This document shows positions 426 to 33,632 of a stretch of 64,000 bases of DNA, one piece after another. The position numbers and the translations under genes are program-made. The notes beneath the pieces were generated by a model that did no database searches, was not told the DNA's origin, and saw nothing but the letters and a program-made list of their open reading frames with translations. The DNA is from an uncultured virus (IMG/VR IMGVR_UViG_3300042880_000331). Taxonomy: Duplodnaviria > Heunggongvirae > Uroviricota > Caudoviricetes. Numbering within the stretch: position 1 is the first letter of the stretch; each line of letters begins with the position of its first letter. The stretch lies in IMG/VR virus record IMGVR_UViG_3300042880_000331. The stretch is one strand, 5' to 3'.

Positions 426-431
426 GCCCCT

Positions 432-1048: not shown

Positions 1049-1095
1049 CATCCTCACAGGGCGCGACACATGAGCCGCCCGTTTCGGAGGAAACA

Positions 1096-1251: not shown

Positions 1252-1252
1252 C

Positions 1253-3924: not shown

Positions 3925-3927
3925 ATA

Positions 3928-3992
3928 CCGCGCACGTCTCCTCCCCGTAGCGCGGGAAAACCCCCGGCACTGTCTCCTCCCCGGTGCCGGGG
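3928..3992 (+). ncRNA. Two-hairpin RNA with UCUCCUCCC loops (cuckoo/CcsR-like)
   Basis: Stems 3928-3955 and 3962-3992 differ in sequence but each closes an identical TCTCCTCCC loop. Confidence 0.6.
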
Positions 3993-3996
3993 TCAA

Positions 3997-7712: not shown

Positions 7713-8080
7713 GTGACCGCCGCCCTACGATGCAAGACGAGGCTGACGCGCAACTGAAATGGATACGCGAAAACATGAGTGACGCAATACCGGACGAGGC
7801 ATTTCCCGAACGGCTGAATATTTTCCGCCGCGACCGGAGGATGACGTGTAACGATCACGTGAACCGCGATCCTGTTGATTGGTGTGACTACATTCGCAAG
7901 GACATCGCAGACGCGGCTGTGAAGGCGGAGCGGGAGCGCATCGCCACCATGATCGAAGCGACCTCATACACTGTCAACGGGGCTGTCCGCAGCCTGGAAC
8001 CCGTCAGTCCTGCATTTGTCGGCATGGACATGCACCACGCCACTATCGCCGCCGCTATCCGCAAGGGGGAACAGCCATGA
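7709..8080 (+). CDS. Hypothetical protein
   Basis: GGAG RBS; AERERIA...IAAAIRKGE phage motif. Confidence 0.6.
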   Translation: MSDRRPTMQDEADAQLKWIRENMSDAIPDEAFPERLNIFRRDRRMTCNDHVNRDPVDWCDYIRKDIADAAVKAERERIATMIEATSYTVNGAVRSLEPVSPAFVGMDMHHATIAAAIRKGEQP

Positions 8081-8121
8081 CCATAGGCAAGCTGATCGAA
8101 GCGGTGGAAGCGGAGTAAGTA

Positions 8122-8268
8122 ATGATTATCCTAAAGCGCTCAGTTACACGGTTCCAAGATGATAGCGGTTATTGGTATCTAAGAGCTCATGTTTGGACTA
8201 TTGATGGCTATTCAAGCAAAACTTTCACAACCCCTGCTGAAGCTAATAATTGGAAACCAAAATCATGA
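8122..8268 (+). CDS. Small hypothetical protein (48 aa)
   Basis: GGAG RBS; MIILKRSV...; ATGA overlap. Confidence 0.45.
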   Translation: MIILKRSVTRFQDDSGYWYLRAHVWTIDGYSSKTFTTPAEANNWKPKS

Positions 8269-8474
8269 CAAAGCCCAGCGTGCCAACAGACTATGACCTG
8301 TTTATTATGGCATCCGCTGTTGAGTGGACTTGCGTCCGGGGTATCGGGCGCAGGCGCACTGTGACGCGGCACGCGACAGAGGCGGAGGCAATGGGTGCAG
8401 CAACCCGTGACGGAAGAACGATGATCTACGCTATCAGCGACGGAGGCTTGTCCGCCCACGTTCGGAACGTATAA
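8265..8474 (+). CDS. Hypothetical protein
   Basis: MTKPSVPTDY...; ATGA overlap. Confidence 0.55.
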   Translation: MTKPSVPTDYDLFIMASAVEWTCVRGIGRRRTVTRHATEAEAMGAATRDGRTMIYAISDGGLSAHVRNV

Positions 8475-8500
8475 AGTTCGCGCATGACGCAAAATAGTTC

Positions 8501-8529
8501 TTGAACTCCACCGCTGTCCGTGCTAGTTT
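8501..8529 (+). promoter_or_regulatory. Sigma70-like promoter
   Basis: TTGAAC-N17-TAGTTT with TG extension. Confidence 0.45.
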
Positions 8530-8567
8530 TGTTCATGGGCAATGGTGCCCGCCAGATGGAGAAACAA

Positions 8568-8777
8568 ATGACACGTACAAACCTGCAAGACTTGCGCCAA
8601 GCCGTCGCTTTTCACGTACAGATGGAACTACGGGCGCAAAGCGGCGACGATGCAACCCCCCGGCAACTGATTGATGGGGCATTTCTTGTGCTGCGCGGCG
8701 CATTGAATCAGGGGCAACCGATTCAGTCGGCAATCGGGGCAGTTGAAGCGAATGCTTATCGTCTTTCGCTTGCTTGA
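8568..8777 (+). CDS. Hypothetical protein
   Basis: GGAG RBS. Confidence 0.55.
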   Translation: MTRTNLQDLRQAVAFHVQMELRAQSGDDATPRQLIDGAFLVLRGALNQGQPIQSAIGAVEANAYRLSLA

Positions 8778-8809
8778 CGCATTGCAGCTTGCCCGAGGAG
8801 GAATAAAAA

Positions 8810-8944
8810 ATGTGGTTAGTTATCCACGCGCCATTTTCTGGTTCCAAAGTTGCTTACAATTTTGATTGTCCGTTCTTTGCTTGGGAATTTGCGAGTTGCG
8901 CAGATCCTGGTCCAGTATGTATTTTTCGAAAGGTAACAGAATGA
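8810..8944 (+). CDS. Small hypothetical protein (44 aa)
   Basis: GAGGAGG RBS; ATGA overlap. Confidence 0.45.
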   Translation: MWLVIHAPFSGSKVAYNFDCPFFAWEFASCADPGPVCIFRKVTE

Positions 8945-21144: not shown

Positions 21145-21861
21145 ATGCAGCTCAACAAACAACCAATCGAAAAACGTGTCTCCCGGGCTGATGGTTGCCT
21201 GGAAGTGCATAGCAGCTTCTACACCATCCAAGGTGAAGGCCCGTTCTGCGGAACCCCTTCCATGTTCGTGCGCCTTGCGGGCTGCAACCTCCAGTGTCCG
21301 TTCTGTGACACGGAATACAGCGACAAGCGAACCCTGCTTGACCCTTACGAGATCCTGGCGCACATTGCTGACGCGATGCCCAAGCCCGGACTTGTGGTCA
21401 TTACAGGCGGTGAACCTTTCCGCCAGAACCTGACCCCGCTGTTGGAGCTACTAACGGCCCGGGGTTACTACGTCCAGATCGAAACGAATGGGACGTTGGA
21501 ACCATCCACTTTCATTTATTCTTGGGACATCAGCAAGAGGCAGGGTGCCTACATCGTTTGCAGCCCCAAGACGGGCAAGGTGCATCCGTTTGTCTGGGCC
21601 CAAGCGTGCTGCGCCAAGTACGTGATGGACGCTGAGGAAGTTGGGTATGACGGTCTGCCCGTGACCGCACTGGGACACACCGCGAACCCGCGTCTTGCCC
21701 GACCGCCTATCCTGTGGCCCAACCACATGATCTATCTGCAACCCATGGACGCGCAGGATTACGAAGAGAACCAGCGCAACATCCAGGCGGTTCGCGAGTC
21801 GTGCATGGAGCACGGTTACATCCTGCAACTGCAAATCCACAAGCTGATTGGAGTAGAATGA
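21145..21861 (+). CDS. queE: 7-carboxy-7-deazaguanine synthase (radical SAM)
   Basis: FYTIQGEG, FVRLAGCNLQCPFCDT, VITGGEP, IETNG, CSPK, LQP, QIHK. Confidence 0.95.
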   Translation: MQLNKQPIEKRVSRADGCLEVHSSFYTIQGEGPFCGTPSMFVRLAGCNLQCPFCDTEYSDKRTLLDPYEILAHIADAMPKPGLVVITGGEPFRQNLTPLLELLTARGYYVQIETNGTLEPSTFIYSWDISKRQGAYIVCSPKTGKVHPFVWAQACCAKYVMDAEEVGYDGLPVTALGHTANPRLARPPILWPNHMIYLQPMDAQDYEENQRNIQAVRESCMEHGYILQLQIHKLIGVE

Positions 21862-22640
21862 TGAAGAAAGCACTTGTCGTCCTTTCTGGAGGGCAGGACT
21901 CAACGACCTGTCTTTTCTGGGCGTTGCAGTTCTATGACGAGGTCCATGCGATCACGTTCGACTACGGGCAGCGGCACCGGATTGAGATCCAGGCTGCAAT
22001 GCGGGTTGCTCGGATGGCTGGGGTTATTGATCGGCACGAAATCTGCACGGTTGGCGACCTTCTTGACAGCACCAGCCCGCTGACCAGCGGAAACGAGCTG
22101 GAGCAATACACCGACCCGGAACAAATGGAAGCGGTGATCGGCGACCGCCGCGAGAAGACGTTTGTCCCCATGCGTAACGCCCTGTTCCTGACCATCGCTG
22201 CCAACCGCGCGGAGGCGCATGGAATCACGGACATCATTACCGGCGTCTGTCAGATGGACAATGCGAATTACGACGACTGCCGGGAGGTGTTTATCCGGGC
22301 GACCGAAGCCTACATCAACACGGCGCTCGGGCATGACCACAGAGGCACGCCCGCCATCCGGATTGTGACCCCGCTGATGCACGCGACCAAGGAACAGACG
22401 GTTCACATCGCGTTTGCGAATCAGAAGTGCTGGGAAGCGTTGGCCTACAGCCACACCAGCTACGACGGCAAGTATCCGCCAACCGACATGAACCATGCCA
22501 ACGTCCTGCGGGCTGACGGATTCGCTAAAGCTGGGCGACCCGACCCGCTTGTGGTGCGGGCGTGGCGGGAGGGTTTGATGGAGCTTCCGCTGACCGACAA
22601 CTACAGTCCCGCGTCAATGCGCGACGCCAGGTTCGGTTGA
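21858..22640 (+). CDS. queC: 7-cyano-7-deazaguanine (preQ0) synthase
   Basis: LSGGQDSTT, FDYGQRH, FVPMRN, YDDCR, TPLM. Confidence 0.93.
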   Translation: MMKKALVVLSGGQDSTTCLFWALQFYDEVHAITFDYGQRHRIEIQAAMRVARMAGVIDRHEICTVGDLLDSTSPLTSGNELEQYTDPEQMEAVIGDRREKTFVPMRNALFLTIAANRAEAHGITDIITGVCQMDNANYDDCREVFIRATEAYINTALGHDHRGTPAIRIVTPLMHATKEQTVHIAFANQKCWEALAYSHTSYDGKYPPTDMNHANVLRADGFAKAGRPDPLVVRAWREGLMELPLTDNYSPASMRDARFG

Positions 22641-22652
22641 GCGGAGTAACCC

Positions 22653-23660
22653 ATGGAACAAGGTGCGGGCAACCAGCTGACCGACGCAGCCGGTGTGAAA
22701 TGGATGGACATGCTGAGCGGGATATTGAACTGCTCGCTCGGGCATGGTTCTTCCGTTGTATCAGAAGCACTTTGCGAGGTCGCAAATAGCGGCCTCGTTA
22801 ACAGCTATGACAGGACAACCCTTAACGCGCAAGCGTTGATGTCCCTTCTTGGAGAATACGACAACCGATACACCTGGAAGCTACTGAATACGGGCGCTGA
22901 AGCGGTTGAGCGGGCGGTGCAACTGTGGGCAGCGGTGGTTGGCGGTCGCCCTGTAGTCGCAGTCCTCAAGGACAGCTTCCACGGGAAGAGCATCACCATG
23001 TCCGGCATCCGGTATAACGTTCCATGGGGCAACCCGTTTGACGTTCTTACCATTGACCCGGATGGGGTCGTGCCCCATTTCGACATGCTGTTCTTTGAAC
23101 CCGTCAAGGGGTGGAACGGTGAGCGTCCAGACGAGGAAAAGCTTCTGGCGTTGTGCAATGAACGGTCTGCCATACTGGTGGCCGACGAGATGATTACAGG
23201 CTTCGGGCGGTGTGGTCAACGCTTCCTGAGTAAGCACGCGGACATGATTATTTCCGGGAAGGGTCTGGCGCAAGGAGTTCCGCTTGCGGTCCTGGGCGCA
23301 CGGCACGCAATCAGCCCAGCGAAGTTTGCCATCGGGTGGAACACAACCTGTGGCGGGAACAACCTGTCAGCGACGGTGGGCCTGCATGTCCTGCGCCACC
23401 TGATGCAGCACGAAGGGGAATTGCGGAACAAGGCGGGATGGATAGAAGACCGCCTTGTGAGCATGGGTTTCAGCGCAACCGGGGCGCTAGGCTTTAAGAC
23501 CATGAAGCGCCCGCATTCAGAAATGCGACCCGTGTTCGAACAGAACCGTGTAATCGCATCCTGGCATGACCCATTCCTGCGGGTCGGTCCCTCCTTTGCA
23601 ACCGTAAAGCGGGACATGGACCACCTGGAAGCTGTTCTCAAACTGGCGGAGATGCGCTGA
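22653..23660 (+). CDS. Class-III PLP-dependent aminotransferase
   Basis: DMLSG..SLGH, NTGAEAVE, SFHG, EPVKG, DEMITGFGRCG, DMIISGKG (Lys203), TTCGGN. Confidence 0.9.
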   Translation: MEQGAGNQLTDAAGVKWMDMLSGILNCSLGHGSSVVSEALCEVANSGLVNSYDRTTLNAQALMSLLGEYDNRYTWKLLNTGAEAVERAVQLWAAVVGGRPVVAVLKDSFHGKSITMSGIRYNVPWGNPFDVLTIDPDGVVPHFDMLFFEPVKGWNGERPDEEKLLALCNERSAILVADEMITGFGRCGQRFLSKHADMIISGKGLAQGVPLAVLGARHAISPAKFAIGWNTTCGGNNLSATVGLHVLRHLMQHEGELRNKAGWIEDRLVSMGFSATGALGFKTMKRPHSEMRPVFEQNRVIASWHDPFLRVGPSFATVKRDMDHLEAVLKLAEMR

Positions 23661-24667
23661 TGGCTGTTATCGGAATTGACATTGACGGCACCCTGTCCAA
23701 GGGCGGGGAGTGGCAGGGTGGTGACTATATCCCTGCACCTAATGCGCTGATGGCAGCACTGGTGGCGGAGCTTGCGACACGGGGTCACCGCTTGTTCGCG
23801 TGGACCTGCCGCGCTGACTACGTTGTGTCCAAGTGGCTGGCGGAGCACAACCTCATTCAGTATTTCGAAGGGGTAAACTACTCGCCGTATCCCACCGAGA
23901 GTGGCAAGGCGAGCTTTGACTTCTACATCGGGGACGAGGCAATTCGCTGGGACGAAAACCCGGAGCGCATCCTGGAGCTGATCCACATCAACTCTGTTGG
24001 CAAAGGCCCCGCTGACTTTGACCGGGACCATTTCTTCAGCAGCCACAACCCAAGGCCATACCTTGCAGGGGTGGGCGTTGCGTATGTGGACCAGTTTGAA
24101 GGGCACTGGAAAGCAGCATGGACCCGGCACCAGCAGAGCGGGAAGACTATCGCGTTCCTGACCATCTGTTCCCATGCAAAACCTTACAGCAAGTCCTTCA
24201 TCCACACGTCTATCCGGGCAGCGTTGTTCCGGGACGGCTACCTTGGAGCGTGTGATTACATCCATATTTCAAACGCGGGAATTATTCCCGCGAGTGCGGA
24301 AATGGACTACCCTTTCAACGCCTACGATTGGAACGGTGACCTCTGCACTCCGGAGGTGAAGCAATACCACATCGAAGCAATCAAGCGCCGCTTCACTGAG
24401 TGGCTGCGGATAAAGGATTGCAGCTACGACCGCATCGTCGTTTATCTGCGCGAGGGTGGCAACACCATCGGAGCAGTCCGGGCAGCTCTACAGGAGTTTG
24501 AGTCCGGCGCGAGTCACCGCCCGTGGTCGACCAAAGTGACGGTCGTTGCTGCATCCGCAGACGAAGAACATTATCCGCAGTTTGTCCAGACCCGTGACCC
24601 GGACGACTGTCTCACCAGTGCAGGCAACCTGCATCATCTTACTGTTGCAATCAGAGGGCACAAATGA
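23660..24667 (+). CDS. HAD-phosphatase::ArcS (DUF5591)-like fusion
   Basis: N-terminal DIDGT, WTCR, K, IGDEA; C-terminal ICSHAKPYSKSFIH, GIIP..E..YP..YD as in archaeosine synthase ArcS. Confidence 0.8.
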   Translation: MAVIGIDIDGTLSKGGEWQGGDYIPAPNALMAALVAELATRGHRLFAWTCRADYVVSKWLAEHNLIQYFEGVNYSPYPTESGKASFDFYIGDEAIRWDENPERILELIHINSVGKGPADFDRDHFFSSHNPRPYLAGVGVAYVDQFEGHWKAAWTRHQQSGKTIAFLTICSHAKPYSKSFIHTSIRAALFRDGYLGACDYIHISNAGIIPASAEMDYPFNAYDWNGDLCTPEVKQYHIEAIKRRFTEWLRIKDCSYDRIVVYLREGGNTIGAVRAALQEFESGASHRPWSTKVTVVAASADEEHYPQFVQTRDPDDCLTSAGNLHHLTVAIRGHK

Positions 24668-25137
24668 CATACCGTTCCAGCAAAACCTACGGCCACGAGA
24701 TTGGTCTTTCGTGTTGCTTTCGCCAGTGGCGGGCCCAGAGCCATTGCCGCTTCCTGCATGGATACGCGCTGTCCGTGCATGTTGAGTTCGAAGCTACCGA
24801 GCTCGACCACCAGAATTGGGTTGTCGACTTTGGTTCGCTGAAGTCTTTCAAGGGCGCCCTGGAGGCCACGTTTGACCACAAGACGCTTGTTGCTAAGGAT
24901 GACCCTCAAATGATGGTTTTCCAAGAGCTTGTGGATCAAGGACTTGCTCAAGTTATGGTTGTTGCTGCTACAGGCTGCGAAGCATTTGCCAAGCTGATCT
25001 ACGACCACACGGGCTGGTGGCTGAAGAACAACGGATACGCTCCCCGCGTCCGGTGCCACCATGTCACAGTCCGGGAGCACGGGGCGAACAGCGCCAGTTT
25101 CTATGCACCCCTGAGCGTGGAAGGCATCGAGCAATGA
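24664..25137 (+). CDS. queD: 6-carboxy-5,6,7,8-tetrahydropterin synthase
   Basis: HCRFLHGY, WVVDFG, FDH, GCE.FA, VREHGANSA. Confidence 0.92.
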   Translation: MTYRSSKTYGHEIGLSCCFRQWRAQSHCRFLHGYALSVHVEFEATELDHQNWVVDFGSLKSFKGALEATFDHKTLVAKDDPQMMVFQELVDQGLAQVMVVAATGCEAFAKLIYDHTGWWLKNNGYAPRVRCHHVTVREHGANSASFYAPLSVEGIEQ

Positions 25138-25736
25138 CCCAGGACTTCAAGAGTGCGGCGCACATTGCCCGCCGTGAGAGAATGTCCAAAAGCATCCGCG
25201 ATCTGTTACTGGACATTGAAGACGTCCACATCCATGACAATCTGCGGGGTGGCTTGGTTGAAACCCCGGACAGGGTTGCCAAGGCATGGGAATTCTGGAC
25301 GTCGGGTTACGGGGTTGACCCCGCTGACGTGCTGAAGACGTTCGAAGACGGTGCGGAGGGTGTGGACGAGATGGTCTTGGTGAAAGACATCCCGTTCTAT
25401 TCCCAGTGCGAGCACCATTTGGCGCCGTTCTTTGGGACAGCAACTATCGCTTACATTCCGCAAGGGCGCGTCGTAGGGTTGAGCAAGCTGTCCCGCCTGC
25501 TGAACATATTCGCCCGCCGGTTGCAGGTGCAGGAGCGTCTGACCTGCCAAGTTGCGGATGCAATGATGGACCATCTTAATCCGCTGGGCTGCGGTGTGGT
25601 CATCAAGGCGCGACACCTTTGCATGGAGTCCCGGGGCGTCTGCCAGCAGGGGCACCACACTGTGACAAGCGCCTTGCGAGGTATGTTCAAAGATGACGCT
25701 ATCGTTCGAGCTGAATTTTTGCAGCTTGCACGCTAG
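25134..25736 (+). CDS. folE: GTP cyclohydrolase I
   Basis: ETPDRVAK, CEHHLAPF, GLSKLSR, RRLQVQERLT, HLCMESRG. Confidence 0.96.
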   Translation: MTQDFKSAAHIARRERMSKSIRDLLLDIEDVHIHDNLRGGLVETPDRVAKAWEFWTSGYGVDPADVLKTFEDGAEGVDEMVLVKDIPFYSQCEHHLAPFFGTATIAYIPQGRVVGLSKLSRLLNIFARRLQVQERLTCQVADAMMDHLNPLGCGVVIKARHLCMESRGVCQQGHHTVTSALRGMFKDDAIVRAEFLQLAR

Positions 25737-25754
25737 CCTGCCACCTGCTATACT
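25726..25754 (+). promoter_or_regulatory. Promoter for dpdA-clamp-polB
   Basis: TTGCAC-N17-TATACT with TG extension. Confidence 0.7.
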
Positions 25755-25758
25755 ACAT

Positions 25759-25784
25759 GGAGCGTCTTCGGACGCTTCCTTTTT
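25759..25784 (+). terminator. Intrinsic terminator
   Basis: GGAGCGTC-TTCG-GACGCTTCC followed by TTTTT. Confidence 0.65.
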
Positions 25785-25795
25785 CGAGGGAACTA

Positions 25796-26755
25796 ATGGA
25801 CATCTATATGGCAGCGGTCTATTCTAACAGCTACATGCCTGGAATGAACCGATATGTGAAGCTGACAGAACGCGAACGCGATGTTGTGACTACACTGCCC
25901 AACATTCTGGAGTCCTGGCACTACGTCGGGAAGCAAAGTTTCGTAGACCACATGAGGAAGAACCAAGCGCGTATCTTCCTTGACAGCGGAGCGTTCTCCG
26001 CATACTCCCTGGGCGTTGAGTTGTCCGTGAGTGAATACTGCGATTATATTGTTCGGAACCAAGACATCCTAAGGGTGGAAGGGAACGACATTATGGCGTC
26101 GGTGTTGGACGGTATTGGTGACCCGTTGCAGACGTGGCGCAACCAGAACGAAATGGAAATGCGGTTCAAGGCGGACTACGGTTTGAACCTGCGGCCCCTG
26201 CCCTGCTTCCACGCGGGTGAGGACGAGCGGTATCTGGAGCACTACGTTGCGAACTACGAATATATCACACTGGGCGGTATGGTGGGTAGCTCCACGAAGC
26301 AGTTGATGGTCTGGTTGGACCGCATCTGGGACCGCTTCCTGACCGACGGTGCAGGGAACCCGAGGCTGAAGGTGCATGGGTTCGGGATTACCTCGGTTCC
26401 CATTATGAACGAATATCCGTGGTATAGCTGCGACTCATCCTCCTGGATCCAGTCGGCAGCATTCGGGTCCGTTATTATGCCTGGGGTGAGCGCCAACGCA
26501 CCCGCGTGGCCTATTAACGTGTCCGAAAAGTCCCCAAGCAGACACGACGCCAACCAGCACATGACAACCCTGTCCCCGGTTGAGGTGGACTACCTGTTCC
26601 AAGTGCTGGAGAAGAATGGGTTTACCTACGAGCGCCTGTCCTCCGTCTACGAGTCCCGCGCTGCCTACAACCTGTGGGCGTTCGGCGTAGTCAACGCAAT
26701 GATCAACGCGTCCGGAAATGAACGGTTCAAGGCGCAAGTTAGGGAGCTGTTCTAA
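25796..26755 (+). CDS. dpdA: DNA 7-deazaguanine transglycosylase (TGT-fold)
   Basis: FLDSGAFSA, LDGIGD, PCFH.GE, LGGMV, VHGFG, SCDSSSW; lies between que genes and DNA polymerase. Confidence 0.88.
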   Translation: MDIYMAAVYSNSYMPGMNRYVKLTERERDVVTTLPNILESWHYVGKQSFVDHMRKNQARIFLDSGAFSAYSLGVELSVSEYCDYIVRNQDILRVEGNDIMASVLDGIGDPLQTWRNQNEMEMRFKADYGLNLRPLPCFHAGEDERYLEHYVANYEYITLGGMVGSSTKQLMVWLDRIWDRFLTDGAGNPRLKVHGFGITSVPIMNEYPWYSCDSSSWIQSAAFGSVIMPGVSANAPAWPINVSEKSPSRHDANQHMTTLSPVEVDYLFQVLEKNGFTYERLSSVYESRAAYNLWAFGVVNAMINASGNERFKAQVRELF

Positions 26756-27711: not shown

Positions 27712-29963
27712 TGGCGCGGAACGATATGGTCGGACTGTTTTGGGACGACACCCCGCCCCCCAAGGCAGAGAAAGCTGAGAAGCAGAAGAGGCAACCGCCC
27801 AACCCCATATGGCTGGACCCGTCCTACCTGCCCGGGCTGGAGGAAGCAAAGCAGTTCCCCGTCAAGCAGATGACAATTGGTGAGGTGAGCGATGCTATTG
27901 CACGCCGCGAGCACTTCATCTTTGACGTGGAGTCCTATCCGAACTACTTTCTTGTCGTGTTCACCCATACCGTAACAGGTGCAGTCTTCTACCTGGAAGA
28001 GGTTGCGGGCGTTGTTTCGTTGGACTGCCAGCTACTGGCTTGGATGCTGAAGTCTGCCACGCTCGTAGGGTTTAACTCCATCAACTATGACATGCCAATC
28101 TGCCAGTTAGCTGCCCACGGCTGGGGCCCTGCGAAGCTATGGGAAGCGACCCACAACATTATCGTCAACGGGTTCCGCGGTTCCGATATTATGAAGGAAG
28201 CTAAGGCTAAGGCTATCCCATGTGACCACATTGACTTGATTGAGGTCGCTCCACTGGTGGCATCGTTGAAGACTTATGCGGGCCGGTTGCACGCCTACCG
28301 GATGCAGGACCTGCCCTTTGCGCCCGGGACCATGCTGACACCGGACCAGATTACAATTACTCGATGGTATTGCGTAAACGATACTTTTAACACTGAGATT
28401 TTACGAAACGAACTTTCTGAACAGATTGATTTGCGTTATACCCTGTCAAATGAATACAGGATTGATTTGCGCAGTAAGTCTGATGCGCAAATTGCGGAAG
28501 CAATTATTGGAAAAGAGTATCATCGCATTACAGGGGTTCGGGCGCAGCGGCCCAGCATTGACATTGGGACCGTCTACCGTTACAACGTCCCGCATTTTAT
28601 CCAGTTTCAGTCCCCGTTGCTACAGTGGGCGCTCGAAACGGTTCGCATGGCGCTGTTCATTGTAGACGAGAGCGGGTCTGTTGGGATGCCCGAGGAGGTA
28701 AAGGCGCTCAAGCTACAGGTGAACGGATCAACTTATCGCATGGGGATTGGCGGGTTGCATAGCTCGGAGAAAAGCGCCGCTCACTATACGGACGCTAACA
28801 ACATTCTTTTTGACAAGGACGTCACCAGTTACTATCCGTTTATCATTCTAAATCAAGCTCTGGCACCTAAGCACTTGGGCGAACCTTTCCTGCGAGTCTA
28901 TCGCGGTATTGTCGACCGGCGTATTGCAGCTAAGAAAGCTAAAAACAAGGTTGTGGCTGACTCACTCAAGATTGTTATCAATGGTTCGTTTGGTAAGTTG
29001 GGCAGCCAGTATTCAATCCTTTACGCTCCGGACTTGCTAATCCAAGTAACCGTGACAGGTCAACTGTCTTTACTAATGCTGATTGAGCGGTTAGAGCTAG
29101 CGAGCATCCCTGTGGTCAACGCGAACACCGACGGGATCGTGATTAAGTGCCCACGCCACATGCAAGACGTCATGAACGCGGTTGTCGCGAAATGGGAAGT
29201 TGATACAGGGTTCGGCACCGAGGAAAGCAGATACATGGGCGTCTTTTCCCGCGACGTTAACAACTACATTGCGGTGAAGCAGAAGTTTGACGAAGAGAAA
29301 AAAGTATGGGTTGAGGTTCCAGATGGAACCAAAGGGAAAGGTGATTATGCTAATCCCTGGGCATCTAAAAAGAAGAGTGAAGAGAAACTTAAGAAAAATC
29401 CAGTAGCTACTATCTGCGTTGATGCTGTGAACGCTTTTCTAATTGCAGGCACCCCAATTGCAACCACAATCAGTTCATGTCGTGATATTACTAAGTTTGT
29501 TAGTGTGCGCAGCGTTACTGGCGGAGCTGTAAAGGTGTGGGACCGCTTACCACCACCACCGCACGAGACTGAAGAAGATCTTATCCGCATGGCGGGGTTC
29601 ACAGAGATTAACCCGGGCGCATGGGTTGCGGAAGGTGAGACCGTTCGCAAGGCTAAGTACGCCAAGGAAGCTTATCGCATTGCGGTGGACCAGTTAAGCC
29701 CGCCTGGGCGTACTGATTATATCGGTAAGACGGTTCGCTGGTATTATGCCAGGAACGTTGTGGGAGAACTGGTTTACGCCAAGACAGGAAATAAGGTGCC
29801 CCGTTCGGATGGTGCGAAGCCTATTATGGTATTTCAAGAAAAGTTCCCTGACGACATTGATTTTGAATGGTATGAGACTGAAACTTATCGCATTTTAGAA
29901 AAAATTGGCGTCATACCGCCCAGCCTACTGGGCCACAATGGCGGACCTGATCTTGAAAACTGA
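27711..29963 (+). CDS. Family B DNA polymerase
   Basis: FDVESY and GFNSINYD exo motifs; DVTSYYP, KIVINGSFGK, NANTDG, DVNNY. Confidence 0.92.
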   Translation: MARNDMVGLFWDDTPPPKAEKAEKQKRQPPNPIWLDPSYLPGLEEAKQFPVKQMTIGEVSDAIARREHFIFDVESYPNYFLVVFTHTVTGAVFYLEEVAGVVSLDCQLLAWMLKSATLVGFNSINYDMPICQLAAHGWGPAKLWEATHNIIVNGFRGSDIMKEAKAKAIPCDHIDLIEVAPLVASLKTYAGRLHAYRMQDLPFAPGTMLTPDQITITRWYCVNDTFNTEILRNELSEQIDLRYTLSNEYRIDLRSKSDAQIAEAIIGKEYHRITGVRAQRPSIDIGTVYRYNVPHFIQFQSPLLQWALETVRMALFIVDESGSVGMPEEVKALKLQVNGSTYRMGIGGLHSSEKSAAHYTDANNILFDKDVTSYYPFIILNQALAPKHLGEPFLRVYRGIVDRRIAAKKAKNKVVADSLKIVINGSFGKLGSQYSILYAPDLLIQVTVTGQLSLLMLIERLELASIPVVNANTDGIVIKCPRHMQDVMNAVVAKWEVDTGFGTEESRYMGVFSRDVNNYIAVKQKFDEEKKVWVEVPDGTKGKGDYANPWASKKKSEEKLKKNPVATICVDAVNAFLIAGTPIATTISSCRDITKFVSVRSVTGGAVKVWDRLPPPPHETEEDLIRMAGFTEINPGAWVAEGETVRKAKYAKEAYRIAVDQLSPPGRTDYIGKTVRWYYARNVVGELVYAKTGNKVPRSDGAKPIMVFQEKFPDDIDFEWYETETYRILEKIGVIPPSLLGHNGGPDLEN

Positions 29964-30061
29964 ACCCCTGTTTTTTGCCGTTACAGCCGCGCAACAGTGC
30001 GCCGCTAGGGTAGGTACGGCCAACGCCATAGCTGGCGCGCTGCGGCAAAAAAGCGGGGTTC
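29962..30061. terminator. Long inverted repeat where the two arms converge
   Basis: GAACCCCTGTTTTTTGCCG ... CGGCAAAAAAGCGGGGTTC. Confidence 0.55.
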
Positions 30062-30122
30062 TAGCGTGCATCACAACGTGATCAGGGTTAAGGGTTTAAC
30101 GGTTAACATATTGCAGCTTCGT

Positions 30123-32303
30123 TTACGGGATCTGAATTTCAATATACTGCCTTTGGAAACTTTCTAGACCATTTCTAACTGAGAATAACTCCACAAACAA
30201 TTTGTCATTTCGTGCTCCAATAATGGCACTAGTTATAGTAAACGTAGACGTAGTGATGCCAGTTGTGGTGTGAAACAAAGTTCCAGTTTTATCAAACAAA
30301 CGAATGGTGACGGTCGCACCAACTTCCGGTGTCAATGGGCCATCCACAAAGCCAACCAAAGTTCCGCCAGTCTGGAGCAATCTATTCCGCTCAGCCCATG
30401 TTACAATGATAGGCGCTGACAGGTCATTTGCAGGGTAACTTACACCATTGAATTCAATACGACCGGGAGGGAAAGGTCTTGCAGCGCGCCCAGCGACGTT
30501 AACGGTCATCGGTGTTGCGCCCGCTAAATCTGAAACACCGGACCCGTTAACTGTGGTTATTTTGGCAGCAACCACGTCGGAGCTAACATACTCTGTTGGA
30601 TCACTTGCTGGGAACTCGCTCCAGAACATCACGGTTGCTCCTGCCAAATGCAGTCGCGGAACAGTGTCCAAAACGCCCCTTTTCACTGTGACCACACTGC
30701 CAGAGATTCCGGTCACTGCCATTAGTTCATTGTCTACCTGAAGCCAACTGTTTAGGACAACTTGGTCAAGCCCAACTCCCGCTGAAATGTTAAGAGTTGT
30801 TCCTGTAAGGCTAATATCAGATAGCAAGACTCCTGACGGTGAGAAGTTTAGAATGCTAGCTTGTTCATAGCCGCTTCCATCATCCGTGTAAAGAAGACCG
30901 TTAATAGCAGGAACAACGGATGATGAAGCAGCGCCAGCAACATAGCCGACAAAAGCGTTCGCTGCAATCTCAGCATCAACAGCAGCCTGTCCTATAACAC
31001 GAACAAGGCTGTAATATGGGAGTTCGAACGCTATTTGATACAACGGATTACCGGGAGGACTTACAGGGTTGGCCCATCCGCTTGGAGGTGTTGCAATGTA
31101 AGCACTGGAAGGATAACCGAAAACGTCTTGAATACACTGAATACGAACGCGGCGTGTCTTGCCATTACCATACGCTATCCCCGTGACTCGCATTACAAGT
31201 TCGGTCAACTGGTAGTCGGGCCAGGTAAGCTTAAAGGCATCCCCAACTTTCAGGTTTCGAGCTACCTTGTTGGCGTAAATGGTGCAGGCGGCAAGGGGTG
31301 TAGATAATGAGATAAGATCACGTTGCCCAACCCGGGAAGCTGTCTCCGCATCTACAAAACCTTCATAAGTGACGGTCGTTGAGTTCTCACCTCCTTGCTC
31401 AAGCAGTAACGCAATATCTTGCACTGTAAGTGAAGCAGGGAGATTGTCTGGAAGATTCCAATAATTGACAGTGACAGAATTATTGAGCTCGCCGAAAACT
31501 GAACGCTTAAAATCATCTACCCTATCAATGTTAGATGGATCAAGTGTAAGAAGGGAGCCTGGAAGATAATCATTTCGAATAAGCTTCAAAACAAACTGCC
31601 CACTTCTCCTGTCAACATAAATGACCGCATCAATATGTTGACAAATAATTTTTAGAAAGTCTTCAATGCTCTTCTGTGTATCCCACAGAAGGCAGATTCC
31701 CATTCTTTCAGCCTTAAGGGTAATAGCGGCGGAAGAGAATGACGCGTCATTGATGTCAGATGGATTGTAACCCATACCCCACAACTTATTCGTTAAGCAT
31801 TCACGAATGATATGAGCAGGATTCATTGCCGCTGCGGTTGTAGCTGCGCCCGTGCTGTCATAGACTGTCACGTCAATTTGGGAATTTGCGTCGTTCCATT
31901 GCGGTTCACCATCTTGTTGAACATGAATACGCTGCACCTGAAAGTTCCAGGTCTTAAGGTAAGGATTCATTCCAAGATACATTTGGTTCAGAACAATTGA
32001 CGCAACACCTCGAAAGCCCGAAACCAATCCCCCAAGGCGGCTGAACAGGTAGGAGTTCCTTGCTTGCGTCCGCCCCCCAGGAAGGAAATCAAAGGTTCCT
32101 GTGATGCCACCCTCCCGTGTGTCTCCTCCAAATAAGTCTGGTTGGTTTACAGTAATAGCCCCGCCTGTGCTTCCCGCTGACCACAGCAGCCTGTCATCAA
32201 CTTTCACGCGGTTTATACGGTCAATTGGACCGTGGCAGAGAACCATATGGACGCCTGCGTAATAGCGGTATCCAACTGTCTGCTCACTTGAACCTCCGGT
32301 CAT
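30123..32303 (-). CDS. Central tail/host-specificity protein
   Basis: HMVLCHGP, LFGGDTREGG, NPAHIIRECLTN..WGMG, RGVLDTVP. Confidence 0.8.
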   Translation of the reverse strand: MTGGSSEQTVGYRYYAGVHMVLCHGPIDRINRVKVDDRLLWSAGSTGGAITVNQPDLFGGDTREGGITGTFDFLPGGRTQARNSYLFSRLGGLVSGFRGVASIVLNQMYLGMNPYLKTWNFQVQRIHVQQDGEPQWNDANSQIDVTVYDSTGAATTAAAMNPAHIIRECLTNKLWGMGYNPSDINDASFSSAAITLKAERMGICLLWDTQKSIEDFLKIICQHIDAVIYVDRRSGQFVLKLIRNDYLPGSLLTLDPSNIDRVDDFKRSVFGELNNSVTVNYWNLPDNLPASLTVQDIALLLEQGGENSTTVTYEGFVDAETASRVGQRDLISLSTPLAACTIYANKVARNLKVGDAFKLTWPDYQLTELVMRVTGIAYGNGKTRRVRIQCIQDVFGYPSSAYIATPPSGWANPVSPPGNPLYQIAFELPYYSLVRVIGQAAVDAEIAANAFVGYVAGAASSSVVPAINGLLYTDDGSGYEQASILNFSPSGVLLSDISLTGTTLNISAGVGLDQVVLNSWLQVDNELMAVTGISGSVVTVKRGVLDTVPRLHLAGATVMFWSEFPASDPTEYVSSDVVAAKITTVNGSGVSDLAGATPMTVNVAGRAARPFPPGRIEFNGVSYPANDLSAPIIVTWAERNRLLQTGGTLVGFVDGPLTPEVGATVTIRLFDKTGTLFHTTTGITTSTFTITSAIIGARNDKLFVELFSVRNGLESFQRQYIEIQIP

Positions 32304-32524
32304 TACTGATCCCCTGTTGTATAGTATAATCGAGCGGCAGCACAAACTTGCCTGGCCATATCACAGTCAATGGCTTCCAGCTCTTCAATGGGATAACCAT
32401 CGGTAATGAACTTGTCATAGTCCAAATTGCGCAGGCGGAACCATCCTTGCGTCCCCCGCCCGCACATAAGAGCTCGCCTGATATCTGGCATTCGGATGAT
32501 AATACCGGGCGAACCTGTGGTCAT
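32303..32524 (-). CDS. Small tail assembly protein
   Basis: MCGRGTQGWF...FITDG motif in tail module. Confidence 0.6.
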   Translation of the reverse strand: MTTGSPGIIIRMPDIRRALMCGRGTQGWFRLRNLDYDKFITDGYPIEELEAIDCDMARQVCAAARLYYTTGDQ

Positions 32525-32586
32525 TTCTTTTTCCCGCCTTTGGTAGCAGGAGCAGGCTTACTCGGTTTCGGATATGGCTTCTTCAT
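32521..32586 (-). CDS. 21-aa basic minigene
   Basis: MKKPYPKPSKPAPATKGGKRK*; ATGA overlaps at both ends. Confidence 0.4.
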   Translation of the reverse strand: MKKPYPKPSKPAPATKGGKKK

Positions 32587-32804
32587 TTTTTACCTCCTTT
32601 CTTTCTCACAGCTTCAGTTTTTATATCACCGTACCAGACAACATTCGTCTGTCTAATCCAACGTGTCCCAAACAGGACAGGGATCGGACGACCTGCTTCC
32701 GCGGTTGGTGATCGTACAGTGCCCAACTCGGGAGCAGTGGGCTTGGGCATTGTTGCATACGCAATTGCAAATGCAACAACAAAAACAACAAAAAACCAGA
32801 ACAT
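32583..32804 (-). CDS. Small tail assembly protein
   Basis: PTAEAGRPIPVLFGT...NVVWYGD. Confidence 0.7.
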   Translation of the reverse strand: MFWFFVVFVVAFAIAYATMPKPTAPELGTVRSPTAEAGRPIPVLFGTRWIRQTNVVWYGDIKTEAVRKKGGKK

Positions 32805-32813
32805 TTTGTTCTC

Positions 32814-33632
32814 CTAAACGAGTGATGTTCCGTCAAACGGATTCTTTTTCGGCATGAAGGGAAACCCTCCGTGGTTTAAGATGTTATTGAATTTAGTATT
32901 GCAAGTCCCAGCTGATCGATCACATCCTGGAAAAATTCGGCATGTAAGTCCGCTGTAACCTAATTGTGAGACACGGTCAATTAGATCGTTCATTGGTCGG
33001 ATAAGAGTAAGTGAGTTTCCAACATGCGCTGTGATAAAACGAAGCGTGCCGTTCATGTCTTCAAAAATCCCTGAGGTAAAATAGCCTAAGGGGTAACTTG
33101 CTGCGACAGGCATTGTTATGGCATTGTTGACCACAAGGGTGACAGGGCCGCTCACGGCCCACTGTTCTTTATTCAGGTTGCAGCCTTTGGAGTAAAGTGC
33201 ATGAGGGCACGTGATCTGATACAACTGCCTCAAGCCTATACGTCGCATGGATGTGAACACACTTTCAAAAATAAAGTCAAACTGGTTCTTTTTTGGGGAC
33301 ACTGAAGACAAGCGCCCTTTCCATTCAATCTCTACGCCATCAGAGATTGACTTGCTGAAGATGGTAACAGTAAGGGGGAAGTCAACGGATGAAGCAAACC
33401 AACGGCGGGCGACCGGGTTATCAATTGGAAAACTAAGCGTCAAATTTTGCTTAGTCATTTCTCCTTTACCTTGTACCTCGTCACGACCGATAGCCAAAGG
33501 TATATAATTTTCGTTTCCAAAACCTGCATTATAGGCTTCAGCCCGATCGGAGCTGGTGACAGTGTAGATAAATGTTCCATTGTTTTCAACAAAACGATAG
33601 AGTTCTTTAACAGCGTCTCTGCCAGTTGTCAT
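32814..33632 (-). CDS. Tail hub protein (DUF2163/BR0599-like)
   Basis: CPHALY..C, PGCD....C..KFNN..N.GGFPFMP..NPF. Confidence 0.8.
   Translation of the reverse strand: MTTGRDAVKELYRFVENNGTFIYTVTSSDRAEAYNAGFGNENYIPLAIGRDEVQGKGEMTKQNLTLSFPIDNPVARRWFASSVDFPLTVTIFSKSISDGVEIEWKGRLSSVSPKKNQFDFIFESVFTSMRRIGLRQLYQITCPHALYSKGCNLNKEQWAVSGPVTLVVNNAITMPVAASYPLGYFTSGIFEDMNGTLRFITAHVGNSLTLIRPMNDLIDRVSQLGYSGLTCRIFPGCDRSAGTCNTKFNNILNHGGFPFMPKKNPFDGTSLV

What the first reader, a model, noticed from the sequence alone, without database searches (positions are those of the whole stretch)
21145..26755. Candidate new phage DNA hypermodification: preQ0 pathway plus self-made amine and ArcS-like ligase
Seen: a contiguous queE-queC-[class-III aminotransferase]-[HAD::ArcS-like]-queD-folE-dpdA cluster. 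The two extra genes sit in the middle and are coupled by TGATG/ATGA overlaps, and the cluster is followed by the clamp and PolB genes. Established: FolE/QueD/QueE/QueC make preQ0, DpdA exchanges it into DNA, and archaeal ArcS adds an amine (lysine) to the preQ0 nitrile, which the radical SAM enzyme RaSEA then trims to archaeosine. No QueF, QueF-like, Gat-QueC or RaSEA gene is visible; QueE is the only CxxxCxxC protein. Inference: the aminotransferase aminates a phosphorylated carbonyl metabolite, the HAD domain removes the phosphate, and the ArcS domain joins the amine to (d)preQ0. The product would be an untrimmed N-substituted amidine, an archaeosine derivative I do not recognise among described phage bases. 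One concrete candidate is DHAP -> serinol-phosphate -> serinol, by analogy with the RtxA DHAP aminotransferase.
Basis: partly seen in the sequence, partly recalled or inferred. Interest (0 to 1): 0.93.

Follow-up and report, generated by a model that had tools for sequence, protein, structure and literature searches.

The report
Phage deazaguanine cluster with amine-making module
A phage that replaces guanine in its DNA with a 7-deazaguanine also carries a conserved, undescribed trio of enzymes (aminotransferase, phosphatase, nitrile-to-amidine enzyme) that probably builds a DNA base not yet described, though only chemistry can show this.

Summary
Window 21145-26755 (+) holds seven tightly packed genes, four junctions overlapping: queE, queC, a short class-III aminotransferase (335 aa), a capless HAD phosphatase fused to an ArcS2/DUF5591 core, queD, folE and dpdA, followed by the clamp and PolB genes. 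The replicon is a siphophage distantly related to NP1-like phages.

New here:
- The aminotransferase lies directly upstream of the HAD::ArcS2 gene in 10 of 10 related loci where the upstream DNA is visible. Two of these records are cultured Synechococcus phages.
- Two relatives with ArcS2 but no HAD also lack the aminotransferase.
- In another phage lineage (L101), a different class-III aminotransferase and a SurE phosphatase, an unrelated fold, sit beside ArcS2.
- ArcS2 cores also occur fused to RaSEA and to an AdoMet-decarboxylase-like domain, each in its own clade.
- The window has no RaSEA, QueF-like or Gat-QueC gene.

Best reading (about 0.5): the aminotransferase and phosphatase make an amino-(poly)ol from a phosphorylated carbonyl metabolite, and ArcS2 adds it to dPreQ0 in DNA, leaving an untrimmed N-substituted archaeosine. 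Plain dG+ is not excluded (about 0.25). The amine is unknown; serinol is one candidate among several.

My literature searches found no description of this module. This scan noted it before on other DNA (e1-3486182, e1-6137022).

The parts
21145..21861 (+). queE, 7-carboxy-7-deazaguanine synthase (radical SAM); the only CxxxCxxC protein of the window
   Evidence: Pfam Radical_SAM 1.3e-09. TIGR04322 at 5.5e-25, below its cut-off. PHROG 2076 at 7.5e-57. Motif scan.
21861..22640 (+). queC, preQ0 synthase, 259 aa, with no glutamine amidotransferase domain
   Evidence: Pfam QueC 7e-48. TIGR00364 at 158.4 bits against a cut-off of 150.3. TGATG overlap with queE.
22653..23660 (+). Short ('mini') class-III PLP aminotransferase, 335 aa. 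Proposed to aminate a phosphorylated carbonyl metabolite.
   Evidence: PF00202 at 101.2 bits. The best NCBIfam hit is the argD subfamily at 98 bits against a cut-off of 410. K203, D178 and R310 are invariant in alignment A2. AF2 pLDDT is 92.7. TM-score to acetylornithine aminotransferases is 0.84-0.89. It belongs to a distinct family of 34 clusters, after which scores fall from 215 to 84 bits.
23660..23995 (+). N-terminal capless (C0) HAD phosphatase domain of the fusion protein, about residues 1-112
   Evidence: D7, D9, T11, R51 and K83 are invariant and D92 nearly so in 30 sequences. Profile hit to 2obb at 1.6e-05. Foldseek to 2obb: probability 1.00, TMt 0.68. PHROG 1238 at 4.6e-11 on residues 3-102. 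No Pfam HAD hit at E<=0.01.
24059..24667 (+). C-terminal ArcS2 (DUF5591, archaeosine-synthase core) domain of the fusion protein, about residues 134-335. Proposed nitrile-to-amidine amine ligase acting on dPreQ0 in DNA.
   Evidence: PF17884 at 36.2 bits against a cut-off of 26. ArcS alpha NF040592 at 5.4e-07. The C1 motif C-x3-KPY-x2-S-x2-H (C170 to H182) is invariant. Foldseek to 2q07, probability 1.00. ATGA overlap with queD.
24664..25137 (+). queD, 6-carboxytetrahydropterin synthase
   Evidence: Pfam PTPS 2.9e-18. PHROG 2389 at 7.5e-43.
25134..25736 (+). folE, GTP cyclohydrolase I
   Evidence: Pfam 3.3e-65. NF006825 at 222.8 bits against a cut-off of 174. In-frame ATG at 25134 overlapping the queD stop.
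25757..26755 (+). dpdA, DNA guanine transglycosylase (by homology)
   Evidence: PHROG 887 at 2.3e-86. NCBIfam DpdA only 18 bits against a cut-off of 200. 74% identical to the annotated DpdA of MMDA13.

Best explanation
This is a tailoring module for a 7-deazaguanine DNA modification. Each step below is marked as homology-based or inferred.

1. FolE, QueD, QueE and QueC make preQ0, and DpdA exchanges it for guanine in phage DNA. This rests on homology to characterised phage systems.
2. The short class-III aminotransferase moves an amino group from an amino acid donor onto an aldehyde or ketone of a phosphorylated metabolite. The arginine that usually binds the donor's alpha-carboxylate is kept, so the donor is probably glutamate. 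The substrate would be a triose, tetrose or pentose phosphate, and the product an amino-(poly)ol phosphate. This is inferred.
3. The HAD domain removes the phosphate, either from the free amine or from the adduct already on DNA. This is inferred.
4. In the fused ArcS2 domain, the invariant cysteine attacks the nitrile of dPreQ0 in DNA, and the amine then displaces it to give an amidine. This is inferred from the lysine-transfer activity of archaeal ArcS.
5. No RaSEA-type radical SAM enzyme is encoded, so the substituent stays. The product would be an N-substituted 2'-deoxyarchaeosine, which is not among the eight described phage 7-deazaguanines.
For: Linkage of the aminotransferase, phosphatase and ArcS2:
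- The aminotransferase lies directly upstream of HAD::ArcS2 in 10 of 10 loci with visible upstream DNA: L002, L004-L007, L010, L012-L014 and L016. L011 starts at the gene itself.
- In the cultured cyanophages Yong-L2-223 and Ssp-JY38, the pair sits apart from the que genes, behind the clamp and polymerase. It is followed there by a translationally coupled RpiB-type sugar-phosphate isomerase (PF02502 1e-39; NF004051 at 139.7 bits against a cut-off of 135).
- L008 and L009 have ArcS2 without HAD in the same slot and have no aminotransferase.
- L101 has a different class-III aminotransferase lineage, then a SurE phosphatase (PF01975 4.6e-18), then ArcS2, then QueC. An unrelated phosphatase fold therefore fills the same position.

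Catalytic residues are kept:
- HAD D7, D9, T11 and K83, and the ArcS motif C170 to H182, are invariant in 30 sequences.
- The aminotransferase residues K203, D178 and R310 are invariant.

The ArcS family takes amines and works on polymer-bound preQ0:
- T. kodakarensis ArcS transfers lysine to preQ0 in RNA, to the nucleoside and to the 5'-nucleotide, but not to the free base.
- The lysine adduct needs RaSEA to become G+ (PMC11298593: abstract and sections 7 and 12 read).

Partner and clade go together among ArcS2 cores:
- RaSEA::ArcS2 fusions were seen in 10 of 10 proteins of 402-488 aa that I scanned. TIGR01210 scores were 1e-29 to 1e-41 for the five N-terminal RaSEA fusions scanned.
- AdoMetDC-like::ArcS2 fusions exist (PF02675 2.2e-13).
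- Most HAD::ArcS2 proteins fall in one clade of 72 rows with SH-aLRT 91.

The window has no RaSEA, QueF-like, Gat, SurE or AdoMetDC gene.
Against: - There is no chemistry. The product is inferred only.
- ArcS-family enzymes can make G+ without a carrier amine. Vibrio phage nt-1 ArcS2 with DpdA2 gave dG+ in E. coli at 4-7 per 10^6 nt (PMC10516641). M. jannaschii ArcS is reported to use NH4+, Asn or Gln (PMC11298593).
- The nearest characterised aminotransferases act on unphosphorylated semialdehydes or amines (acetylornithine, ornithine, GABA). Every NCBIfam hit is far below its cut-off, so a phosphorylated substrate is deduced only from the neighbouring phosphatase.
- In L015 the gene between the aminotransferase and ArcS2 is a dTMP-kinase-like P-loop protein, not a phosphatase.
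- SurE and many capless HADs are nucleotide-directed families, so the phosphate could belong to a nucleotide-like substrate.
- RpiB was found in only one lineage and could be an unrelated metabolic gene.
- The HAD domain has no Pfam hit.
Confidence: 0.5

Rival explanations
1. The end product is ordinary dG+, or dADG. Either the aminotransferase and phosphatase supply a nitrogen carrier whose carbon skeleton is later lost, spontaneously or through a host enzyme. Or ArcS2 uses ammonium, and the two partners only raise efficiency.
For: - nt-1 ArcS2 alone gives dG+ in E. coli (PMC10516641).
- M. jannaschii ArcS is reported to use NH4+, Asn or Gln.
- In related phages the same genomic slot holds Gat-QueC (NP1-like phages) or a QueF-like gene (MMDA13). 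Both are known or presumed routes to dG+ or dPreQ1.
- nt-1 dG+ levels are very low, so a helper for nitrogen delivery could be selected.
Against: - An amine made by transamination of an aldehyde or ketone gives an N-alkyl amidine with a stable C-N bond. Archaea need the radical SAM enzyme RaSEA to cleave it. ArcS2 cores that presumably use that route carry RaSEA as a fusion. The window has none.
- This reading gives the invariant phosphatase no role.
- ArcS2-only relatives do without both partners.
Confidence: 0.25
2. The order is reversed. ArcS2 first joins a host amine with a second functional group (lysine, ornithine, a diamine or a phospho-amine) to dPreQ0 in DNA. The aminotransferase and the capless HAD then remodel the DNA-bound side chain. 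The product is still a new base, but the aminotransferase works on the polymer.
For: - The aminotransferase lacks the N-terminal segment and a loop of about 20 residues found in canonical class-III enzymes. This may open the active site.
- Its closest structural relatives include enzymes for bulky or tethered substrates, and LysJ models appear among the NCBIfam hits.
- By my recollection, capless HADs often act on macromolecular substrates; T4 Pnkp appears among the fold matches.
- ArcS acts on polymer-bound preQ0 and not on the free base.
Against: - No host amine bearing a phosphate is an obvious candidate.
- The coupled RpiB in the cyanophages fits a small-molecule sugar-phosphate supply better.
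- There is no evidence that any class-III aminotransferase acts on DNA.
Confidence: 0.15
3. The aminotransferase and HAD are auxiliary metabolic genes unrelated to DNA modification, and their place in the cluster is incidental.
For: - Phages carry many metabolic genes.
- Small standalone viral HADs of unknown role resemble this domain.
Against: - The HAD is covalently fused to ArcS2 in a family of 59 clusters.
- Aminotransferase adjacency holds in 10 of 10 loci.
- The mini-aminotransferase family is separated from cellular enzymes by a drop from 215 to 84 bits. Among 50,697 phage records, close relatives were found only in the two cyanophages that also carry the fusion.
Confidence: 0.05

Closest known systems
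Phage ArcS2 (DUF5591-only archaeosine synthase core) of Vibrio phage nt-1 and Sulfolobus virus STSV-2; Cui et al., NAR 2023, PMC10516641 (passages read)
   Same: - It has the DUF5591 core without TGT-like or PUA domains.
- It carries the ArcS C1 motif.
- It is encoded with dpdA and preQ0 genes and is presumed to act on the nitrile of (d)preQ0.
   Different: - Here the core is fused to a HAD phosphatase and always paired with a dedicated aminotransferase. That paper mentions no aminotransferase (0 occurrences in the main text; none in the one supplementary file held as text).
- The nt-1 protein was not retrieved by tblastn with the fusion at E<=1e-3, so the two are distant.
Archaeal ArcS-RaSEA archaeosine pathway; Fujita et al., JBC 2024, PMC11298593 (abstract and sections 7 and 12 read). 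The original RaSEA paper by Yokogawa et al. 2019 is recalled, not read.
   Same: - An amine (lysine) is added to the preQ0 nitrile after the base is in the polymer.
- The free base is not a substrate.
- The adduct cannot be removed by the transglycosylase.
   Different: - The substrate is tRNA, not DNA.
- The amine is a host amino acid, not a self-made one.
- RaSEA trims the adduct to G+; here no RaSEA is encoded.
- The canonical TGT-like and PUA domains are absent.
Gat-QueC (phage 9g, NP1-like Pseudomonas phages) and QueF-like genes in the same slot of related phages; Hutinet et al. 2019, PMC6884629 (passages read)
   Same: - The phage backbone and the position between queC and queD are the same.
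- The role is the same: modify preQ0 further.
   Different: - The enzymes are unrelated.
- Their products are dG+ or dPreQ1.
- They involve no aminotransferase or phosphatase.
Aminotransferase plus phosphatase pairs that make amino alcohols in primary metabolism: HisC with HisB-N (histidinol phosphate to histidinol) and SerC with SerB. All are recalled, not tested.
   Same: The logic is the same: transaminate a phosphorylated carbonyl compound, then remove the phosphate with a HAD-type enzyme.
   Different: - The aminotransferase classes differ (I/II or V against III).
- There is no sequence relationship beyond superfamily level.
- Their products are not joined to a nucleobase.
Thymidine hypermodification pathways of phages, in which amino acids are appended to 5-hmdU and remodelled by PLP enzymes (recalled). 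A 2026 paper on a diaminopropane-modified thymine, PMC13458397, was seen in a search listing only.
   Same: Post-replicative, multi-enzyme decoration of a DNA base with an amine-bearing side chain; PLP enzymes take part.
   Different: The base, the attachment chemistry (pyrophosphate displacement against nitrile addition) and the enzyme families all differ.

Membership tests
ArcS2 (phage DUF5591-only archaeosine synthase core) | DUF5591 / PF17884 domain | tested here: met
   36.2 bits against a cut-off of 26, E 6.5e-09, residues 155-271. Foldseek to the DUF5591 protein 2q07, probability 1.00.
ArcS2 (phage DUF5591-only archaeosine synthase core) | C1 motif PC-x3-KPY-x2-S-x2-H, as quoted in PMC10516641 | tested here: met
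   C170-x3-K174-P175-Y176-x2-S179-x2-H182 is invariant in 30 family members. The leading P is replaced by I169.
ArcS2 (phage DUF5591-only archaeosine synthase core) | Core domain stands alone, with no other catalytic domain | tested here: not met
   About 112 N-terminal residues form a HAD phosphatase domain. The protein is therefore a fused variant, not a plain ArcS2.
ArcS2 (phage DUF5591-only archaeosine synthase core) | Converts dPreQ0 to dG+ | not testable with these tools
   This needs LC-MS of DNA.
Canonical archaeal ArcS / ArcS-RaSEA system | TGT-like N-terminal domain and PUA domain | tested here: not met
   No TGT or PUA Pfam hit. NF040592 scores 28.6 bits against a cut-off of 440.
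Canonical archaeal ArcS / ArcS-RaSEA system | Partner radical SAM enzyme RaSEA | tested here: not met
   QueE is the only radical SAM protein. tblastn with two RaSEA::ArcS2 fusions hits only the ArcS2 part.
HAD phosphatase superfamily | Four catalytic motifs: DxDxT, S/T, K and an acidic motif | tested here: met
   D7, D9, T11 and K83 are invariant. T/S49 sits in the WT/SxR motif. D92 is kept in 90% or more of sequences.
HAD phosphatase superfamily | Rossmann-like HAD fold | tested here: met
   Foldseek to 2obb: E 4.7e-04, probability 1.00, TMt 0.68. KDN-9-P and KDO-8-P phosphatases and T4 Pnkp phosphatase are further down the list. Profile hit to 2obb at 1.6e-05. No Pfam HAD model hit at E<=0.01.
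HAD phosphatase superfamily | Phosphatase activity and its substrate | not testable with these tools
   An enzyme assay is needed.
Class-III (fold-type I) PLP aminotransferases | PF00202 domain, Schiff-base lysine, and the aspartate that binds the pyridine nitrogen | tested here: met
   101.2 bits against a cut-off of 30.5. K203 and D178 are invariant. TM-score 0.84-0.89 to acetylornithine aminotransferases.
ArgD / GabT / OAT orthologues | Score above the NCBIfam family cut-off | tested here: not met
   The best hit is argD at 98.2 bits against 410, and all 66 hits are below their cut-offs. The protein is 335 aa, lacks the N-terminal segment and a loop of about 20 residues, and has HGK in place of HGR.
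Phage DpdA (DNA guanine transglycosylase) | Homology to DpdA/TGT and a place in a preQ0 gene cluster | tested here: met
   PHROG 887 at 2.3e-86. 74% identical to the MMDA13 DpdA. The NCBIfam bacterial DpdA model scores only 18 bits against 200.

The most novel reading that the evidence does not exclude
ArcS2 is the common ligase of a combinatorial system. Interchangeable amine-generating partners would programme different N-substituted archaeosine bases in phage, and perhaps bacterial, DNA. The partners seen are an aminotransferase with a fused HAD, an aminotransferase with SurE, an AdoMet-decarboxylase-like domain, and, according to an earlier unchecked note of this scan, an aminotransferase with a PHP phosphatase. 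RaSEA-fused forms would trim back to dG+. This would be a guanine counterpart of the thymidine hypermodification families, and the window phage would carry an amino-polyol-substituted base.
Probability: 0.35. Interest if true: 0.9.

Novelty: new variant of a known kind. Interest (0 to 1): 0.78.

Why it matters
- Eight 7-deazaguanine derivatives are described in phage DNA (PMC10516641), and none carries a substituent on the amidine nitrogen. A bulky, hydrophilic N-substituted archaeosine would be a new class of DNA base.
- Such a base could affect evasion of restriction, CRISPR and glycosylase defences, and how these genomes behave in sequencing.
- The module offers an enzyme that joins chosen amines to a nitrile in DNA.
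- The prediction can be tested directly. Two cultured Synechococcus phages (Yong-L2-223, on PCC 7002, and Ssp-JY38) carry the same pair.
- The comparison also suggests that the partner of an ArcS2 core predicts its chemistry: alone, RaSEA-fused, phosphatase plus aminotransferase, or decarboxylase-fused.

Tried and rejected
- **Complex prediction.** The aminotransferase (A3) with HAD::ArcS2 (A1) scored 0.00 against a mark of 0.32. The verdict was 'no answer', so it is not used either way.
- **Whole genome of the window.** None is held. No terminal repeat of 20-mers lies more than 30 kb apart.
- **Further loci.**
  - The viral-contig scan with the mini-aminotransferase alignment returned only contigs already in hand.
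  - The scan with the long aminotransferase alignment returned only L101's contig.
  - The metagenome scan gave 6 loci, most under 5 kb.
  - The genome-contig scan listed 80 loci. Only L016 matches the whole protein, and the other 79 match within residues 1-133, the HAD part only.
- **Context for AdoMetDC::ArcS2 and RaSEA::ArcS2.**
  - No viral contig was found.
  - 0 of 301 sampled genomes of the family of G001 matched.
  - No phage record matched beyond the ArcS2 part of PhiF1.
- **Matching contig lengths** between the long aminotransferase lineage and the ArcS2-only clade: only the L101 contig matched.
- **Protein atlas on the HAD domain.** It returned only small viral HADs of unknown function, with scores of 0.88 or less.
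- **RpiB and the L015 kinase in other loci.** Neither was found outside its own locus, so neither belongs to the core module.
- **Idea rejected: the aminotransferase makes preQ1 from a 7-formyl intermediate.** This needs a two-electron reduction, and no reductase is encoded.
- **Idea rejected: the aminotransferase is a phospho-lyase releasing ammonia.** This would leave the phosphatase without a role.

Full report
**1. What is in the window.**

The 64-kb window is a tailed-phage genome or most of one. It encodes primase, ligase, a Cas4-like exonuclease, a RadD-like helicase, clamp and PolB on the + strand. Tail, head, portal, terminase and lysis genes lie on the - strand.

It is only distantly related to sequenced phages. 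blastn of 21145-26755 matched 171 of 50,697 phage records, none over 80% or more of the query. The best match was Sphingomonas phage MMDA13 at 51% coverage and 68.6% identity, followed by NP1-like Pseudomonas phages. No whole genome is held for the window.

**2.

- queE, 21145-21861
- queC, 21861-22640, with no Gat domain
- a class-III aminotransferase, 22653-23660
- a HAD::DUF5591 fusion, 23660-24667
- queD, 24664-25137
- folE, 25134-25736
- dpdA, 25757-26755

The clamp and PolB genes follow. The junctions queE/queC and aminotransferase/fusion are TGATG. The junctions fusion/queD and queD/folE are ATGA.

Only queE carries CxxxCxxC in a gene with family support. tblastn with a QueF-like protein, RaSEA::ArcS2 fusions, a SurE and an AdoMetDC::ArcS2 protein found nothing in the window beyond the ArcS2 part itself.

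**3. The two extra proteins.**

*The fusion (P0002, 335 aa).*
- Its N-terminal domain of about 112 residues carries all four HAD motifs. D7, D9, T11 and K83 are invariant in 30 homologues and D92 nearly so.
- It matches the capless HAD 2obb by profile (1.6e-05) and by fold (probability 1.00, TMt 0.68). No Pfam HAD model hits it.
- A poorly predicted linker (residues 123-135, pLDDT below 50) joins it to a DUF5591 domain.
- That domain carries the ArcS C1 motif, C170-x3-KPY-x2-S-x2-H182, invariant in the family. It resembles the DUF5591 protein 2q07.

*The aminotransferase (P0001, 335 aa).*
- It is a complete class-III fold: pLDDT 92.7 and TM-score 0.84-0.89 to acetylornithine and ornithine aminotransferases.
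- The Schiff-base lysine K203, D178 and the C-terminal arginine R310 are invariant.
- It is 50-100 residues shorter than its relatives. It lacks the N-terminal segment and a loop of about 20 residues, and has HGK where canonical enzymes have HGR.
- All 66 NCBIfam hits are far below their cut-offs.

**4. Both belong to tight, phage-borne families.**

The fusion has 59 homologous clusters at E<=1e-3 in 5.8 billion proteins. Nearly all are 308-367 aa and full length.

The aminotransferase has 34 close clusters (215-730 bits), after which scores drop to 84 bits for ordinary cellular enzymes.

Among 50,697 phage records, only Synechococcus phages Yong-L2-223 and Ssp-JY38 carry either protein at family level. 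In one genome per 185,579 species, only one contig holds the whole fusion: L016, a 24-kb phage-like contig binned into a MAG. The other 79 listed hits cover the HAD part only.

**5. Linkage.**

I hold eleven distinct loci with a full-length fusion: L002, L004-L007, L010-L014 and L016.
- The aminotransferase lies directly upstream in 10 of the 10 where upstream DNA is present. L011 begins at the gene.
- 10 of the 11 also show at least one que or dpdA gene. L010 is a 1.9-kb contig.
- In the cyanophages the pair has left the que cluster and lies behind the clamp and polymerase genes. It is followed there by a start/stop-coupled RpiB-family isomerase. The pair therefore travels as a unit.

L008 and L009 belong to the same phage group. 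They have ArcS2 without HAD in the same slot and have no aminotransferase. In MMDA13 the slot holds a YdjM-like and a QueF-like gene, and in NP1-like phages queC carries a Gat domain. The slot between queC and queD is thus a variable position for the preQ0-tailoring function.

**6. A second, independent version of the trio.**

L101 is a PolA phage. It has folE, an unassigned 313-aa ORF, a 395-aa class-III aminotransferase, a SurE-family phosphatase (PF01975 4.6e-18, with NDDG and GHN motifs present), ArcS2 (224 aa), queC and queD.

L015 has a related aminotransferase (37% identity to L101's, but only about 27% to the window's). It is followed by a dTMP-kinase-like P-loop protein, ArcS2, a YhhQ-type transporter and queC.

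An aminotransferase of a different lineage therefore again sits with ArcS2, and in L101 an unrelated phosphatase fold replaces HAD. This non-orthologous replacement is the strongest comparative argument that a phosphatase step belongs to the pathway.

The kinase-like gene in L015 is unexplained. It may be an ordinary phage nucleotide kinase, or it may show that the phosphate chemistry differs there.

I did not check it.

**7. ArcS2 architectures.**

A profile of the ArcS2 domain (A4) found 211 proteins at E<=1e-3 among 1.84 billion representatives. I scanned 28 of the best 150 with Pfam and 8 with NCBIfam.
- Ten of ten proteins of 402-488 aa are Radical_SAM::DUF5591. The five N-terminal fusions scanned with NCBIfam (four of these plus the 635-aa P0239) hit the RaSEA model best (1e-29 to 1e-41, below its cut-off).
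- P0301 is an AdoMet-decarboxylase-like::DUF5591 fusion (PF02675 2.2e-13). Its cluster contains proteins that NCBI names from Microbacterium chromosomes.
- Two proteins are TGT::DUF5591, the canonical ArcS type.

I then built a quick maximum-likelihood tree of 164 domain rows. These were kept from 217 after dropping rows covering fewer than 130 profile positions and exact duplicates. The HAD label was set by a motif pattern and an N-terminal extension of 95 aa or more, not by Pfam.
- 67 of 71 HAD-labelled rows fall in one 72-row clade (SH-aLRT 91). The other five rows in it are 138-271 aa and look truncated, which is my inference.
- All 12 RaSEA fusions lie in an 18-row clade (95).
- The 6 AdoMetDC rows form one clade (99).
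- Three divergent HAD fusions (P0193, P0201, P0220) lie in neighbouring clades. One HAD-labelled row (P0284) lies far away and may be a false label.

Partner and clade therefore go together.

**8. What is known.**

Cui et al. 2023 (PMC10516641, passages read) named the phage DUF5591-only protein ArcS2. They showed that nt-1 ArcS2 with DpdA2 gives dG+ in E. coli at 4-7 per 10^6 nt. Their text mentions no aminotransferase, and the one supplementary file held as text mentions no aminotransferase or phosphatase. Other supplements may exist that I could not see.

Fujita et al. 2024 (PMC11298593, abstract and sections 7 and 12 read) report the following:
- T. kodakarensis ArcS transfers lysine to preQ0 in RNA, to the nucleoside and to the 5'-nucleotide, but not to the free base.
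- RaSEA converts the lysine adduct to G+.
- ArcTGT cannot remove the adduct.
- M. jannaschii ArcS uses NH4+, Asn or Gln directly.

The family therefore varies in its nitrogen donor, and it acts after the base is in the polymer.

Searches for ArcS2, DUF5591, the two cyanophage names, and combinations of deazaguanine or archaeosine with aminotransferase or phosphatase found no description of this module.

**9. Mechanism proposed.**

Steps resting on homology:
- preQ0 synthesis.
- Insertion by DpdA. DpdA stays 57-95% identical across relatives whatever fills the tailoring slot. This fits a common substrate, preQ0, with tailoring done on DNA.

Steps that are inferred:
- The aminotransferase aminates a phosphorylated aldehyde or ketone.
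- The HAD domain removes the phosphate, before or after ligation.
- ArcS2 C170 forms a thioimidate with the nitrile, and the amine resolves it to an N-substituted amidine.
- Without RaSEA, the substituent stays.

The amine is unknown. The candidates are the transamination products of GAP or DHAP, erythrose-4-P, and ribose-5-P or ribulose-5-P. The cyanophage isomerase scores for both the RpiB and the erythrulose-4-P isomerase models.

**10. Rivals.**
- dG+ by a traceless route, or from ammonium (0.25).
- Remodelling of a DNA-bound adduct by the aminotransferase and HAD (0.15).
- Incidental metabolic genes (0.05).

The sum of readings that give a new base is about 0.65.

**11. Verdict.**

This is a real, conserved and so far undescribed tailoring module inside a known kind of system. 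It is a new variant of phage 7-deazaguanine DNA modification. The scan has met it before on other DNA (e1-3486182, e1-6137022). Those notes agree with this reading but are not independent evidence. The decisive test is mass spectrometry of DNA from the two cultured cyanophages.

Noticed in passing
P0226, P0228, P0229, P0232-P0236, P0238, P0246 (402-488 aa); P0239; P0242: RaSEA-like radical SAM domains are fused to ArcS2/DUF5591 cores. This is a single-chain version of the archaeal ArcS-RaSEA complex. All 12 N-terminal RaSEA fusions in the tree lie in an 18-row ArcS2 clade (SH-aLRT 95); P0242 (ArcS2 before RaSEA) lies elsewhere. Their genomic context and hosts were not obtained.
   Followed up: partly
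P0301 and P0268, with cluster members P0322-P0328: An AdoMet-decarboxylase-like (PF02675) domain is fused to ArcS2. Some members are named by NCBI from Microbacterium chromosomes. This would be another ArcS2 with a built-in amine-generating partner. No context was obtained.
   Followed up: partly
L101:4066-6660: A PolA phage contig carries a 395-aa class-III aminotransferase, a SurE-family phosphatase and a stand-alone ArcS2 next to queC, queD and folE. The unassigned 313-aa ORF upstream (2941-3882) might be a divergent DpdA. This was not tested.
   Followed up: partly
L015:309-4286: The locus runs aminotransferase, dTMP-kinase-like P-loop protein, ArcS2, an unassigned 113-aa ORF, a YhhQ-type (Vut_1) transporter and QueC. 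A kinase fold sits where other loci have a phosphatase. This is unexplained.
   Followed up: partly
L002:7990-8433 and L103:3490-3933: In the two Synechococcus phages, an RpiB/LacAB-family sugar-phosphate isomerase is start/stop-coupled to the HAD::ArcS2 gene. It scores for both the ribose-5-P isomerase B and the erythrulose-4-P isomerase models. It was not found in any other locus.
   Followed up: yes
L001:4495-5180 (Sphingomonas phage MMDA13): The same slot between queC and queD holds a YdjM-like membrane protein and a 98-aa gene annotated as QueF-like. The QueF-like gene gave no Pfam hit at E<=0.01.
   Followed up: no
L007:1066-3963 and L007:9908-10717: The RadD-like helicase match is split into two pieces about 1.1 kb apart, which suggests an intein or an inserted gene. 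A ThyX-like gene lies between folE and dpdA.
   Followed up: no
window 53888-57982 (-): A 1364-aa protein has a lactonase/SGL beta-propeller region (PF10282 7.4e-12) and no PHROG match. It lies between the lysis genes and the terminase-side genes.
   Followed up: no
window 28001-38000: G+C falls to 0.44-0.50 from about 0.56-0.59 elsewhere. The drop covers the end of PolB and the distal tail genes, which suggests a recently exchanged host-range module.
   Followed up: no
window 1-8900: A block of ORFs has no Pfam or PHROG match: 2410-2934, 2986-3489, 3508-4401, 4952-5869, 6428-7450 and 7565-8080. It lies beside a small HTH regulator at 378-743.
   Followed up: no
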